Positions 27,516-52,622 of a DNA stretch of 64,000 bases are shown here, piece after piece. Under the pieces are notes generated by a model. The model saw only the letters and a program-made list of their open reading frames with translations. It had not been told where the DNA came from and ran no database searches. How positions within the stretch are numbered: the stretch's first letter is position 1; each line of letters starts with the position of its first letter. The stretch comes from Dictyostelium discoideum (taxonomy: Eukaryota): contig CM000154.2 of NCBI GenBank assembly GCA_000004695.1, positions 4,480,001-4,544,000 on the forward strand, given 5' to 3'. The position numbers were made by a program, and so were the translations under genes.

Positions 27516-30500
27516 ATGAAAGAAAATAGTTACAACACAAGTATTCATAGTAATAAAGTTAAAAATTATGACGATGCTGATAGTAGTGGTGATGTTGCAG
27601 TGGTTGGTATTGGTTTAAGATTTCCAAGTGGTAATTTAAAAGAATCGATTTCAAAACCAAATCAATTATTTAATGAATTATTGAATGGATTGGATGGAAT
27701 AGTTTCAACTTCTGAAAGATGGTCTGATAATTATTGTTTAAATGGTGAAATCGTTTCAAAGTTTGCTGGTTTACTTCCACTTGATGAATGGAAACAATTT
27801 GATCCAATCTTCTTTGCAATTAATCCAAGCAATGATAATGTCGGTTCAATAGATCCACAACAAAGATTATTATTAAAATGTATGTATACTATCATTGTCG
27901 AATTGAGTCAAAAAAATTTGTGTTTTACTCCACCAAAAAATTTTTATTTTTTTTTATTATTTTTATTTTTTTTTATTTTTTTATTTTTTTGTGCAATACT
28001 TCTGGTCAAAAATAATTTTTTATTTTTTTTTTTTTATCAACAGTTGACAATTATCTTTAATTAAAATGTTTTTTTTAAAAAAAATCAATCCATTAAAAAT
28101 TTAAAACATGGATATTTTTTTAAAAAATTTAGATATTTATATTTATTTATTAATAATGTTTTTTTAAATAAAATCAACAAACAGGTGTATGGGAAGCATT
28201 AGAAGATAGTGGTATTGATCCAATTAGTTTACGTGGTACCAATACAAGTACATTTATTGGTAGTAGTACTATTGATTATAATAATCTTCAAAAATCACCA
28301 TTTGAAACTCAAAATAATATTTTTGGTTCCACAACTAATTCCGTTGCAAATAGAATAGGTTATTGCTTTGATTTTAGGTATGTTTTCTATTTATTTTTCA
28401 TTACTATAACCATAATTTAAAGAATTATATTAATAATTAATTAATTATCATTTCTTTTTTTTAAAAATAGAGGTGAAAATTTAACAATTGATACAGCTTG
28501 TTCAAGTTCATCAAATGCAATTAATTGTGGATATAATTCAATTAAATCAAATAAATCAAATGTTTCAATCGTTGGTGGTGTTAATTTTATATTAGGTATG
28601 TGATAAATTAAAAAAAAAAAAAATAAAAAAAAAAAGAATTATATAAATTAAAAATCAAATAATTTTTATTTATTTATATTATTATTTATTTATAGACCCA
28701 CACATTTCAAAATCGTTCACCCAATTAGATATGTTAAGTCCAACAGGTAAATGTCATACATTTTCATCGGATGCTGATGGTTATGTTCGTTCAGAAGGTG
28801 TTGGTATCGTTGTATTAAAGAGATTAAAAGATGCAATCAAAGATTCAAATAATATCTATTGTGTAATCAAAGGATCAAGTTCAAATATCGATGGTAACTT
28901 TGATAAATTAAACTTTTATTCACCATCAAAATCATCTCAGTGCGAAAATATCAAATTAGCAATCAAATCAACCAATGGTCAAATCAATGAATCTGATATT
29001 GATTATTGTGAAACTCATGGTACTGGTACTCCAACTGGTGATCCAATAGAATTAGAAGGCATATCAAGAGTTTTCAATAATAAAGCATCAACTACAAAAA
29101 CTAATAATAATAAACAAGTTTTAGTTGGATCAGTTAAATCAAATATTGGACATACTGAAGGTAAGTTAATTAATTAAATATAAATAACCAAAGTCAATCA
29201 TTAAATACTAACATTAAATATTGTTTATAATAATAAATAATAATAATAATAATAATAATAATAATAATAATAATAATAATAATAATAATAATAATAATAA
29301 CAGCATGTTCAGGAGTTGCATCATTAATTAAATGTTGTATAATGTTTAAAAATAAACTATTTCTTCAAAATATTAATTTCAAAGAACCAAATCCATTAAT
29401 TAATTTTAAAGAATGGGGATTAAAAGTTGTCACTGAACCAATTAAATTTAATGAAAATAAATCAACTGTCATGTTAATTAATAATTTTGGTATAACTGGT
29501 AAATATATACATCATTATATTGTTAAATTTTATTATTATAAAATAAATAATTAATATTTTAATAATGTCATTTATATAGGTTCAAATGTTTGTTTAATAT
29601 TATCTGAATTTTGTAGTGATCAATTTAGAAAAAGTAATGATTATCACAAAATGGAAATTGATAATAAATTTAATGAAAAAAAGAAATATTTAATACCACT
29701 CTCAAGTAATTCATCAACATCATTAAATAATTATAAATCATCAATAATTAAACATTCAAATTTAACACCATTCTCATCACCCACAAGCTTTGAAGGATTT
29801 ATATGTAATCAAATTAAATTCAAATCAACATCATTAATTCAAAAATCAGTTATAATCGCAAGTGATTGGAATGAATTTCAAGATGAAAGCAATCATATTA
29901 AATTAGAAAATAGTGATAATTTAATTTCAAATATTACAGTTGAAAAAAAGAAATCACCACTCACAGTAATGGTATTATGTGGTCAAGGTTCACAATATAA
30001 TAAAATGGCATTATCATTATATGATAATGTACCAATATTTAGAGAATCTGTCAATAGATTCGATAAAGAGTTATTCAAATATTATGGTTATTCAGTTTTA
30101 GATAAATTAAGATCAATTGATGATAAAGATTTAATATCAATTCATCAACCAATTTTAGCACAACCTGCAAATGTTATCATTCAAGTATCACTCTATGAAT
30201 TATATAAACATTGGGGCGTTTCAGCAGATATTATCATTGGTCATTCTCTTGGTGAAATATCATCAGCATATTGTTCAGGTATGATTGATTTTCAAACATT
30301 ATGCTACTTGACTTACCATAGATCAGTAGCTCAAAATAGAACCATAGGTACAGGTAGAATGTTATCAGTTAATATTAGTTCAGATGAATTCATTAATAAA
30401 TATCAATCTACAACTAAATATAAATCATTAGAAATTGCATGTTACAATTCACCAACATCAATCGTTATCGCAGGTAAAGAAGACTTATTAAATGAAATTA

Positions 30501-51800: not shown

Positions 51801-52622
51801 TTTGATTTAATTGAATTATATCCACAATTAATTGCATTTGACGAACTTGAACAAGCTGTATCAATTGTTAAATTTTCACCTCTATTTTTTAAAATTAATA
51901 TAATAGTTAAAATTATAGTTGTGGTAAAAGAAAAGATAAATCAAAAACATACCTAAAATCAAAGCAATAACCAATTCTATTTGCAATAGAATGAGTTGTG
52001 GAACCAAAAATATTATTTTGAGTTTCCAATGGTGATCTTTGAAGATCATTATAATCAATAGTACTACTACCAATAAATGTACTTGTATTGGTACCACGTA
52101 AACTAATTGGATCAATACCACTATCTTCTAATGCTTCCCATACACCTGTTTGTTGATTTTATTTTAAAAATATAATTAATAAATAAATAAATATAAATAT
52201 CTAAATTTTTTGTGGAAAAGTTCAAAAACACTTAATAAATACATACATTTTAATAATAATCTTTGTTGTGGATCTATTGAACTGACATTATCATTGCTTG
52301 GATTAATTGCAAAGAAGATTGGATCAAATTGTTTCCATTCATCAAGTGGAAGTAAACCAGCAAACTTTGAAACGATTTCACCATTTAAATAATAATTATC
52401 AGACCATCTTTCAGAAGTTGTAACGATTCCATCCAATCCATTCAATAATTCATTAAATAATTGATTTGGTTTTGAAATTGATTCTTTTAAATTACCACTT
52501 GGAAATCTTAAACCAATACCAATCACTGCAACATCACCACTACCATCAACATCATCATAATCATTTCTATCCCTTATTAATTTATTATTATAAGTGCTAT
52601 TATTGTGAATATTTTCTGTCAT
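42863..52622 (-). CDS. Type I iterative polyketide synthase B, near-identical convergent paralog of A; 7 exons on the - strand: 52247..52622 (ATG at 52622), 51953..52145, 51757..51881, 51219..51686, 50923..51117, 43493..50851, 42863..43383; about 3078 aa
   Basis: Same exon/intron structure and phases as A. The long ORF 43485..50462 plus an upstream open frame covers AT through R. Same motifs as A. The first listed M of ORF 52176..52658 is a non-ATG start; the real ATG ([24 protein letters not shown]...) is at 52622. Confidence 0.85.

What the first reader, a model, noticed from the sequence alone, without database searches (positions are those of the whole stretch)
27516..52622. Convergent, near-identical PKS paralog pair flanking a rearranged pseudogene copy
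PKS A (+) and PKS B (-) have the same 7-exon structure, the same domain order and, by eye, well over 90% nucleotide identity. This similarity extends into their introns and 3' flanks (the last exons 37150..37670 and 42863..43383 are mirror images). Between them sits a third, heavily damaged + strand copy at 38150..42350. Together with the truncated copy at 3031..5525 and the partial copy at 1..2268, this is at least five copies of one PKS unit within about 52 kb. Such a layout suggests recent segmental duplication plus inversion, and possibly ongoing gene conversion between A and B. Small differences are visible: A carries an (AAT)24 microsatellite in intron 4 (29228..29300) that B lacks, and A is about 31 codons longer. 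Nearly identical inverted paralogs 5 kb apart are also an obvious substrate for inversion polymorphism and an obvious source of assembly error.
Basis: seen in the sequence. Interest (0 to 1): 0.7.

Follow-up and report, generated by a model that had tools for sequence, protein, structure and literature searches.

The report
Tail-to-tail polyketide synthase gene pair
Two intact, 96%-identical giant polyketide synthase genes of a social amoeba lie tail to tail around a wrecked third copy; this is a real but fairly ordinary case of a gene family that keeps duplicating, rearranging and copying sequence between its members.

Summary
A (27516-37670, +, 3109 aa) and B (52622-42863, -, 3078 aa) each have 7 GT..AG exons and the domain order KS-AT-DH-MT-ER-KR-ACP-R, with intact reading frames. 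Exons are 96.1% identical and introns 88.8%. C (38166-42343, +) is a true pseudogene. The window comes from a close relative of Dictyostelium discoideum, and the locus matches the chromosome-5 PKS/P450 cluster around DDB_G0290703. In every related genome I could fetch, the copies are head-to-tail, so the convergent layout is special to this lineage. "Recent duplication" is only partly right. Ks(A,B) is 0.08, against 0.017 for the neighbouring P450 gene compared with D. discoideum. Copies group by genome in all five genomes; D. firmibasis has 98.4%-identical paralogs either side of a P450 whose ortholog is only 75% identical. A and B share a 425-bp identical tract spanning intron 6 and exon 7 (p<1e-4). 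The best reading is a birth-and-death PKS array homogenised by gene conversion, here between inverted copies. Misassembly is unlikely but cannot be tested without reads. It is a new member of a known kind, of modest interest.

The parts
27516..37670 (+). PKS A: intact 7-exon gene of 3109 aa with domain order KS-AT-DH-MT-ER-KR-ACP-R. Exons: 27516-27879, 28185-28377, 28471-28595, 28696-29160, 29304-29498, 29580-37046, 37150-37670.
   Evidence: Spliced model, all introns GT..AG, no internal stop. Pfam domains. Catalytic motifs present: [51 protein letters not shown] and Y..xK.
42863..52622 (-). PKS B: intact 7-exon gene of 3078 aa with the same architecture as A. Exons: 52622-52247, 52145-51953, 51881-51757, 51686-51219, 51117-50923, 50851-43493, 43383-42863.
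   Evidence: Compared with A: 93.2% aa identity, Ks 0.086, Ka 0.032, Ka/Ks 0.375, and every exonic indel is a multiple of 3.
38166..42343 (+). Copy C: an unprocessed pseudogene. It begins 25 bp before the exon-4 acceptor, so exons 1-3, the start codon and the KS active-site Cys are missing. It retains introns 4 and 5 and ends in the (AAT)n linker after the ACP domain, so it has no R domain.
   Evidence: BLAST against A and B, alignment, frames and stop codons, Pfam on its two ORFs. About 93.5% identical to A and 91% to B.
38419..38480 (.). A 55-62 bp micro-inversion inside exon 4 of C. It equals the reverse complement of A 28950-29011 and is flanked by small deletions.
41232..41264 (+). Junction of a 3.2-kb internal deletion in C (A 31832 joined to A 35050; this removes MT, ER and part of KR), with about 30 bp of filler. 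A 1-bp frameshift follows near 41538.
37105..37529 (.). The longest perfectly identical A/B tract, 425 bp (= B 43428-43004). It spans the end of intron 6 and most of exon 7 and is the best candidate for a recent conversion tract. The next longest is 300 bp, at 30700-30999 (= B 49731-49432).
   Evidence: In the run-length permutation test, 0 of 5000 shuffles reached it. In a Sawyer-type test on polymorphic sites only, there were 56 consecutive concordant sites, with 0 of 10000 permutations reaching that. B coordinates.
37692..38165 (.). Unique spacer between A's 3' end and C. There is no repeat, no tRNA and no transposon match.
42344..42843 (.). Unique spacer between C and B's 3' end.
29227..29300 (+). 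(AAT/ATA)24 microsatellite in intron 4 of A, absent from B.
   Evidence: TRF, alignment.
36084..36207 (+). Coding (AAT)41 poly-Asn linker between ACP and R in A. B has 23 units at 44289-44356. This accounts for 21 of A's 31 extra codons.
1..2268 (-). Copy D: the 5' part (exons 1-5 and the start of exon 6) of a further PKS that runs off the window. It is the positional ortholog of the 3075-aa gene downstream of DDB_G0290703.
   Evidence: tblastn. Its upstream intergenic region 3048-1866 matches L003 18918-20095 at 95%.
3047..5528 (-). Copy E: a remnant of the DDB_G0290703 ortholog. It lacks the first 26 codons and has internal and 3' deletions, leaving only KS and AT pieces.
54490..56838 (-). 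Cytochrome P450 gene, syntenic with the P450 that sits between the PKS genes in D. discoideum and D. firmibasis. It serves as the single-copy yardstick.
   Evidence: Pfam. 96-97% nt identity to L003 6785-9096. Ks 0.017.
57411..58925 (-). Stub of DDB_G0290703-ortholog exon 1 (57411-57478, + strand, ATG lost), followed by the poly-A/T run 57479-57500 and the C-terminal part of ORF2 of a non-LTR retrotransposon (57603-58925, - strand).
   Evidence: Alignment and 10-bp target-site duplication GAAATGATGA. Homologs of the ORF carry Exo_endo_phos and RVT_1 domains.

Best explanation
A and B are two functional-looking paralogs of a dictyostelid highly reducing type I PKS with a terminal reductase domain. 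They belong to the PKS/P450 cluster that in D. discoideum includes DDB_G0290703.

In this lineage the copy on the far side of the P450 has been multiplied to three units (A, C and B). One unit (B) was turned round, so A and B now lie tail to tail 5.2 kb apart, and the middle unit (C) has decayed.

Their 96% identity is confined to the transcription unit. It is mainly the result of repeated non-allelic gene conversion between family members, not of one very recent duplication. The same process homogenises the paralogs in every related genome examined.

Shown:
- the anatomy of the three copies;
- the intactness of A and B;
- the sharp homology boundaries;
- the mosaic pattern of identity;
- the grouping of copies by genome.

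Inferred:
- the order of events (duplication, then inversion, then decay of C);
- that conversion is still going on;
- that both enzymes are expressed and make a reduced, reductively released polyketide, which the neighbouring P450 and O-methyltransferase might then tailor.
For: (1) Both genes are intact and all exonic indels are in frame. Ka/Ks is 0.375 and the catalytic motifs are conserved.

(2) Introns are 88.8% identical while flanks are at background. The boundary falls within about 50 bp of the ATG and 21 bp of the stop codon. The same gene-limited homology is seen in D. firmibasis, where one 7469-bp match at 98.4% ends about 32 bp past the stop codon.

(3) Differences are strongly clumped. 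The variance/mean ratio is 3.8, and the identical runs of 425 and 300 bp compare with about 145 and 123 bp expected; 0 of 5000 shuffles reached them.

(4) When only polymorphic sites are used, the 37116-37529 tract stays significant (0 of 10000 permutations) and 34663-34773 gives p=0.017. The first tract includes intron sequence.

(5) Distance matrices and a neighbour-joining tree put the copies together by genome. Window A+B have 100% bootstrap support. So do the three copies of a second D. discoideum strain and the three copies of D. cf. discoideum.

(6) D. firmibasis and D. discoideum share the PKS-P450-PKS layout. The P450 orthologs are only 75% identical and the PKS orthologs about 84%, but the paralogs within a genome are 98.4% and 96% identical.

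(7) Ks(A,B) is 0.081, within the range of within-genome pairs elsewhere (0.074-0.093). It lies below all between-genome pairs, which range from 0.083 to 0.146.

(8) All fetched relatives have the copies on one strand, so the inversion is derived.
Against: - There are no reads, so the layout rests on the assembly alone.
- I could not obtain the D. discoideum or D. firmibasis sequence upstream of the gene on the far side of the P450. The claim that A sits in the ancestral position and that B and C are the added copies is therefore inferred only from orientation and from the P450 neighbour.
- For A and B specifically, a lineage-specific duplication with Ks 0.08 would also make them sister copies.
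- The P450 yardstick rests on only 5 synonymous changes. Orthologous non-coding DNA nearby is 89-95% identical, not far from the 89% of the A/B introns.
- Clumping of differences can partly reflect uneven constraint, although the polymorphic-site test and the intron content of the main tract argue against that.
- Identical tracts are also the places where an assembler could switch between copies.
Confidence: 0.7

Rival explanations
1. A single, fairly recent inverted segmental duplication of one PKS gene, followed only by ordinary point mutation and slippage. No gene conversion is involved.
For: - A and B are each other's closest relatives with 100% bootstrap support.
- Only one gene sits in this position in D. 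discoideum and D. firmibasis.
- Intron divergence (11%) and Ks (0.08) agree with each other.
Against: - Homology ends sharply at the gene ends on both sides, while the introns are still 89% identical.
- Divergence is very uneven, and one 425-bp identical tract includes intron sequence.
- Ks(A,B) is about 5 times the P450 divergence from D. discoideum, yet D. discoideum has no close ortholog of either copy; the best match is 93-94%.
- The same 'copies group by genome' pattern appears where the duplication must be old, in D. firmibasis.
Confidence: 0.2
2. An assembly artefact. This could be a fold-back or chimeric join, or a misplaced contig, that turns one gene or a tandem pair into an inverted pair.
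For: - Repeats of this kind are hard to assemble.
- The scaffold contains 100-N joins at 6667-6766 and 11236-11335, so it is not a finished sequence.
- Related genomes all show tandem copies.
Against: - There is no N between 11336 and 64000.
- The arms differ at 432 sites or indel events, have different intron lengths (305 against 101 bp for intron 1) and different repeat lengths, and both keep open reading frames. A fold-back artefact would give identical arms.
- The centre is asymmetric, with a distinct third copy that carries its own lesions.
- The longest exact repeat shared by the arms is only 425 bp.
Confidence: 0.06
3. Old paralogs whose similarity is kept only by purifying selection on the protein.
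For: Ka/Ks is 0.375, so selection on the protein is real.
Against: - Synonymous divergence is only 0.08 and the introns are 89% identical, while the flanks cannot be aligned.
- Selection on the protein cannot preserve introns and silent sites.
Confidence: 0.02

Closest known systems
D. discoideum chromosome-5 PKS/P450 cluster around DDB_G0290703. From memory this gene is annotated 'probable polyketide synthase 40'; the labels pks39 and pks41 for its neighbours are my working names and I did not verify them.
   Same: - Same gene family: 86-88% aa and 90-95% nt identity.
- Same 7-exon structure and the same domain order.
- Same neighbouring P450, at 96-97% nt identity and in the same orientation.
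- The intergenic DNA between two of the PKS genes is recognisable at 95%.
   Different: - In D. discoideum (two strains), D. cf. discoideum and D. firmibasis all copies are on one strand. Here one copy is inverted and a pseudogene sits between the pair.
- The DDB_G0290703 ortholog itself has been destroyed here by a retrotransposon (copy E).
- Neither A nor B has a close (97% or better) ortholog among the fetched D. discoideum copies.
Lineage-specific expansion of PKS genes in dictyostelids (Sucgang et al. 2011, PMC3188802; Zucko et al. 2007, cited there).
   Same: It is a large family of 2000-3500-aa iterative PKS genes in which the paralogs of one species group together and few orthologs can be recognised.
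   Different: That work read the pattern as species-specific expansion. Here, conserved PKS-P450-PKS synteny combined with 96-98% identical paralogs within a genome points to homogenisation by gene conversion as at least part of the cause.
Arm-to-arm gene conversion in large inverted repeats (palindromes), as described for the human Y chromosome. This comparison is from my own knowledge.
   Same: Two inverted arms carrying genes are separated by a unique spacer, and sequence identity is maintained by conversion between the arms.
   Different: - The arms here are single genes of 10 kb at only 96% identity, not over 99.9%.
- Homology stops at the gene ends.
- The spacer carries a third, partial copy that can also act as a conversion partner.
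Fungal highly reducing PKS with a C-terminal reductase (R) release domain. This comparison is from my own knowledge; the Pfam ACP model that matched is named after the fungal HR-PKS SdgA.
   Same: The domain order KS-AT-DH-MT-ER-KR-ACP followed by a NAD_binding_4 reductase.
   Different: - It belongs to a dictyostelid lineage, and its product is unknown.
- It has poly-Asn linkers encoded by (AAT)n.
- The DH motif HxxxGxxxxP was not found by a strict pattern search.

Membership tests
Type I iterative highly reducing PKS with terminal reductase | KS domain with the Cys-His-His catalytic residues | tested here: met
   Pfam ketoacyl-synt and Ketoacyl-synt_C. DTACSSS, HGTGT and NIGHTE are present in both A and B.
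Type I iterative highly reducing PKS with terminal reductase | AT domain with the GHSxG serine | tested here: met
   Acyl_transf_1 at E about 1e-43. GHSLG in both genes.
Type I iterative highly reducing PKS with terminal reductase | Full reducing loop (DH, ER, KR) plus C-methyltransferase | tested here: inconclusive
   Pfam hits to KR, ADH_N/ADH_zinc_N_2 (ER) and Methyltransf_12 are clear in both. The DH hits (PKS_DH_N, PS-DH) are weak, at or below the curated cut-off in B. The HxxxGxxxxP motif was not found by a strict pattern search.
Type I iterative highly reducing PKS with terminal reductase | ACP with a phosphopantetheine serine, followed by an NAD(P)-binding reductase domain | tested here: met
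   ACP_SdgA_C and PP-binding, with GMDSL. NAD_binding_4, with GSTGFLG and Y-x3-K in both genes.
Type I iterative highly reducing PKS with terminal reductase | Enzyme activity and product | not testable with these tools
   No expression or chemistry data are available.
Inverted segmental duplication (palindrome-like pair) | Two arms in opposite orientation, similar end to end, separated by a spacer | tested here: met
   A 27565-37691 matches B 52561-42844, with a 5152-bp spacer.
Inverted segmental duplication (palindrome-like pair) | Near-identity of the arms (over 99%), as in actively converting palindromes or very recent duplications | tested here: not met
   95.5% overall: 96.1% in exons and 88.8% in introns. 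Ks is 0.086.
Paralogs under interlocus gene conversion (concerted evolution) | Mosaic identity with tracts longer than chance allows, tested on polymorphic sites only | tested here: met
   37116-37529: 56 concordant polymorphic sites, reached by 0 of 10000 permutations. 34663-34773: p=0.017. Run-length test: 0 of 5000.
Paralogs under interlocus gene conversion (concerted evolution) | Paralogs within a genome more alike than positional orthologs between genomes | tested here: met
   This is met for the family. In D. firmibasis the paralogs are 98.4% identical, against about 84% for PKS orthologs and 75% for the P450 ortholog. Copies cluster by genome with 100% bootstrap support in three genomes. 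For A and B themselves it is inconclusive, because separate positional orthologs of each could not be identified.
Processed (retrotransposed) pseudogene, considered for copy C | Loss of introns and a poly-A tail | tested here: not met
   C retains introns 4 and 5 and ends in the coding (AAT)n linker.
Fold-back assembly artefact | Identical arms that are symmetric about a centre | tested here: not met
   There are 432 differences or indel events between the arms, and the centre is asymmetric, containing C.

The most novel reading that the evidence does not exclude
The 'species-specific expansions' long inferred for dictyostelid PKS genes may be produced in good part by concerted evolution. On this reading, gene conversion keeps overwriting old paralogs, across an intervening P450 gene and even between inverted copies. 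The A/B pair would then be a live example in which conversion, and possibly flip-flop inversion of the 5-kb spacer, shuffles domains between two working synthases, with a pseudogene (C) as an additional and potentially harmful donor.
Probability: 0.45. Interest if true: 0.5.

Novelty: new member of a known kind. Interest (0 to 1): 0.33.

Why it matters
For annotation, A and B should be called as two separate intact genes and C, E as pseudogenes, and short reads will multi-map across them.

For evolution, this cluster is a clean, testable case. It suggests that PKS trees in social amoebae cannot be read as simple duplication histories. The conserved PKS-P450-PKS layout, combined with nearly identical paralogs within a genome, shows homogenisation. 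Some 'lineage-specific expansions' may therefore be old families that are repeatedly overwritten.

For natural-product work, two 93%-identical synthases next to a P450 and an O-methyltransferase are candidates for closely related products. Conversion between them is a natural form of domain shuffling.

None of this is surprising in kind. Multigene families in repeat-rich genomes commonly behave this way.

Tried and rejected
- I searched for the D. discoideum ortholog of the gene just upstream of A (B-box/FNIP gene, 24143-25600), to test whether A sits in the ancestral position. The search was swamped by low-complexity words and returned nothing.
- The same attempt with the kinase domain at 21085-21975 returned no Dictyostelium ortholog.
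- I looked for transposons, tRNA genes or shared repeats at the A-C, C-B and B-P450 junctions that could explain the inversion, and found none.
- I checked whether the D. discoideum intergenic DNA between the PKS tail and the P450 tail survives in the window. It does not.
- A first global alignment with an accurate MAFFT mode timed out. I repeated it with a faster mode.
- I considered C as a processed pseudogene and rejected that because it keeps its introns.
- I considered the similarity as selection only and rejected that because of the intron and synonymous-site identity.
- I considered a fold-back artefact and rejected that because of the differences between the arms.
- Literature searches for gene conversion among Dictyostelium PKS genes, and for pks39/40/41, found no study of this cluster.
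Full report
**What the window is.** The DNA is 23% G+C. Its proteins match Dictyostelium best. The large ORF of gene A is 86% identical to 3075-aa proteins of D. discoideum strains, 88% to AX4 DDB_G0290703, 81% to D. citrinum and 77% to D. 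firmibasis. No hit reaches 90%, so this genome is not in the protein collection. A cytochrome P450 gene at 54490-56838 is 96-97% identical in nucleotides to the P450 next to DDB_G0290703 on D. discoideum chromosome 5 (locus L003), and it lies in the same orientation. The window is therefore from a close relative of D. discoideum and covers that PKS/P450 cluster.

**Checking the observation.**
- Self-BLAST shows the inverted repeat directly.
- I built spliced models by choosing, for each intron, the GT..AG pair that best restored colinearity with a D. discoideum homolog.
- A encodes 3109 aa and B 3078 aa, a difference of 31 codons.
- 21 of those 31 codons come from a longer (AAT)n poly-Asn linker between ACP and R, and 10 more from a short insertion in the R domain.
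- Pfam gives the domain order KS, AT, DH, MT, ER, KR, ACP and a NAD_binding_4 reductase in both genes.
- The catalytic motifs I searched for are present in both, except a strict DH motif.

**How similar A and B are.**
- A global alignment including flanks gives 96.1% identity in exons and 88.8% in introns, with many intron indels.
- Intron 1 is 305 bp in A and 101 bp in B.
- Upstream and downstream flanks are only 57-63% identical, which is what forced alignment of unrelated AT-rich DNA gives.
- The homologous block runs from A 27565 to 37691 (B 52561 to 42844). That is from about codon 17 to 21 bp past the stop codon, plus roughly 50 bp of weaker similarity before the ATG.
- The (AAT)24 repeat in A's intron 4 is confirmed and is absent from B.

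**The middle copy, C.**
- It spans 38166-42343 on the + strand.
- It starts 25 bp before the exon-4 acceptor, so exons 1-3, the start codon and the KS active-site cysteine are missing.
- It keeps introns 4 and 5, so it is not a processed copy.
- Inside exon 4, a 55-62 bp piece (38419-38480) is the exact reverse complement of the corresponding A sequence, with small deletions on either side.
- It has in-frame stop codons.
- A 3.2-kb deletion joins A-coordinate 31832 to 35050 at 41232-41264, with about 30 bp of filler.
- There is a 1-bp frameshift near 41538.
- The copy ends in the (AAT)n linker, so it has no reductase domain.
- 'Heavily damaged' is accurate.
- The spacers on either side (37692-38165 and 42344-42843) are unique. 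They contain no tRNA gene, transposon or shared repeat.

**Divergence between A and B.**
- The proteins are 93.2% identical, with Ks 0.086, Ka 0.032 and Ka/Ks 0.375. All 14 exonic indels are multiples of three.
- Both copies therefore look as though they are under purifying selection.
- The 432 differences are not spread evenly. The variance-to-mean ratio in 100-site bins is 3.8.
- The longest identical runs are 425 bp (37105-37529) and 300 bp (30700-30999), against about 145 and 123 bp expected. None of 5000 shuffles reached them.
- Uneven constraint could produce some of this clumping, so I repeated the test in the manner of Sawyer, using only sites that vary among A, B and three full-length relatives.
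- The 37116-37529 tract then holds 56 consecutive concordant polymorphic sites, reached by 0 of 10000 permutations. A second tract, 34663-34773, gives p=0.017.
- The first tract includes the end of intron 6.
- A and C also share a stretch at about 31012-31187 in which 40 of 41 polymorphic sites agree. The two halves are each borderline (p about 0.05), and A is closer to C than to B between 30650 and 31140.

**Comparison with relatives.** I fetched the homologous loci from five other genomes.
- An AX2/AX4-type D. discoideum (L003) has PKS, P450 (opposite strand), DDB_G0290703, then another PKS, with all PKS genes on one strand.
- A second D. discoideum strain (L001, L002) has three PKS genes head to tail.
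- D. cf. discoideum (L004) also has three PKS genes head to tail.
- D. firmibasis (L005) has PKS, P450, PKS on the same pattern as D. discoideum.
- D. citrinum (L006) has a different arrangement with several P450 genes.
- None has a convergent pair, so the tail-to-tail layout is derived in the window's lineage.
- In the window, the P450's 3' end faces B's 5' end across 1.9 kb. In D. discoideum and D. firmibasis it faces the 3' end of a single PKS. A has the orientation of that single gene.
- I therefore infer that A holds the ancestral position and that C and the inverted B were added. I could not obtain the upstream region in the relatives to prove it.

**Concerted evolution.**
- Sliding-window identities, segment-wise distance matrices and a neighbour-joining tree with bootstrap all show that copies group by genome.
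- Window A+B have 100% bootstrap support, as do the three copies of the second D. discoideum strain and the three of D. cf. discoideum. The three AX2-type copies group weakly.
- Ks values for exon 6 are 0.074-0.093 within genomes and 0.083-0.146 between genomes.
- The clearest case is D. firmibasis. Its two PKS genes flank the P450 exactly as in D. discoideum, so the duplication predates the split of these species.
- The P450 orthologs are only 75% identical and the PKS orthologs about 84%. Yet the two D. firmibasis paralogs are 98.4% identical over one uninterrupted 7469-bp match that ends about 32 bp past the stop codon.
- Independent duplication to the same place in each lineage is far less likely than gene conversion.
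- The A/B pair shows the same properties: gene-limited homology, sister status and mosaic identity.

**Is the duplication recent?**
- The P450 next door differs from its D. discoideum ortholog by Ks 0.017 (5 synonymous and 7 non-synonymous changes in 490 codons). Ks(A,B) is 0.081-0.086.
- Neither A nor B has a close ortholog among the D. discoideum copies I have; the best is 93-94% over 31400-37690.
- Taken at face value, the A/B split is older than the separation from D. discoideum. This does not fit a duplication that happened after that separation, unless conversion from other, more divergent copies has added differences.
- The yardstick is weak. It rests on few changes, and orthologous non-coding DNA nearby is 89-95% identical.
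- I therefore hold only that 'recent' is not established, and that conversion explains the pattern better than age alone.

**Assembly.**
- The only N runs are at 6667-6766 and 11236-11335.
- The arms differ in hundreds of positions, in intron lengths and in repeat lengths, and both stay open. The centre is asymmetric.
- This is not what a fold-back or a collapsed repeat looks like.
- Confirmation still needs reads.

**Other copies and a side finding.**
- Copy D (1-2268, minus strand) and copy E (3047-5528, minus strand) are the positional orthologs of the two PKS genes on the near side of the P450. The intergenic DNA between them matches D. discoideum at 95%.
- The D. discoideum gene DDB_G0290703 aligns to two separate places in the window.
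- Its first 26 codons, with the ATG lost, lie at 57411-57478, next to the P450 as in D. discoideum.
- They are followed at once by a T-run (57479-57500) and, on the minus strand, by the C-terminal part of a non-LTR retrotransposon ORF2 (57603-58925). Longer homologs of that ORF carry endonuclease and reverse transcriptase domains.
- The remainder of the gene is copy E, starting at 5528.
- The 10 bases GAAATGATGA occur at both break ends, which is a target-site duplication.
- So a retrotransposon inserted into exon 1 of this gene, and the two halves are now 52 kb apart and inverted relative to each other.
- The sequence next to E (5529-6666, with + strand ORFs) is probably the element's 5' part. 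I have no direct evidence for that: it matched no Pfam family and none of the fetched retrotransposon proteins. It runs into the N gap at 6667.
- A real inversion through the element and a scaffolding choice therefore cannot be told apart here.

**Literature.** The D. purpureum genome paper describes dictyostelid PKS genes as having few orthologs between species and attributes this to lineage-specific expansion (PMC3188802). The recent set of long-read Dictyostelium genomes, probably the source of most of the loci I fetched, lists PKS genes among the largest gene families (PMC12745789). I found no paper on gene conversion in this cluster.

**Verdict.** The structure is a lineage-specific inverted arrangement within a known, fast-changing PKS cluster, with good evidence for homogenisation by gene conversion. 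It is a new member of a known kind. Its main value is as a clean example, and as a warning for annotation and for reading PKS family trees.

Noticed in passing
window 57411-58925 and 3047-6666: The ortholog of D. discoideum DDB_G0290703 was split in exon 1 by a non-LTR retrotransposon. The 26-codon stub, a poly-A/T run and the ORF2 C-terminal part lie at 57411-58925. The rest of the gene (copy E) starts at 5528. A 10-bp target-site duplication, GAAATGATGA, is present at both ends. The two halves are 52 kb apart and inverted relative to each other, so either there was an inversion through the element or it is a scaffolding choice at the N gap 6667-6766.
   Followed up: partly
L005 (D. firmibasis) 1-7462 against 12439-19891: Two PKS genes flanking a P450 are 98.4% identical over 7469 bp, while the P450 is only 75% identical to its D. 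discoideum ortholog. This is strong evidence of concerted evolution in this cluster.
   Followed up: yes
window 38419-38480: A micro-inversion of 55-62 bp inside exon 4 of pseudogene C, flanked by small deletions. This is the kind of scar left by template switching during replication or repair.
   Followed up: partly
window 59649-64000: A sixth PKS gene on the + strand runs off the window. It shows KS-AT-DH so far and has only about 48% aa and 71% nt identity to A, so it belongs to a different subfamily.
   Followed up: partly
window 7826-10601: An O-methyltransferase (two overlapping ORFs, 7826-8587 and 8542-9171, meaning an intron or a frameshift) and a class-III aminotransferase (9222-10601, minus strand) lie on a 4.5-kb piece bounded by the two 100-N gaps. 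Together with the P450 they could be tailoring genes for the PKS products.
   Followed up: no
window 6667-6766 and 11236-11335: Two runs of exactly 100 N, which are scaffold joins. The order and orientation of 1-6666 and 6767-11235 relative to the rest of the window are therefore not sequence-proven.
   Followed up: partly
window 36084-36207 against 44289-44356; also 32344-32425 against 48012-48080 and 42269-42334: Coding (AAT)n poly-Asn linkers differ in length between the copies (41 against 23 units after ACP). C ends exactly in this repeat, which suggests the repeat acted as a breakpoint.
   Followed up: partly
L001/L002 against L003: Two D. discoideum assemblies differ at this cluster. One has three full-length tandem PKS genes with no gene called in the 2.4-kb gap between the first two. 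The other has a P450 there and a shorter (2623-aa) middle gene without the R domain. The cluster may be structurally polymorphic within the species, or these may be different arrays.
   Followed up: no
window 14357-17032, 19724-21975, 24143-26549: The housekeeping-type genes between the two PKS groups are a poly(A)-binding protein (RRM x4 plus MLLE), a protein kinase, and a B-box/FNIP-repeat protein with an (AAT)n tract at 24181-24296.
   Followed up: no
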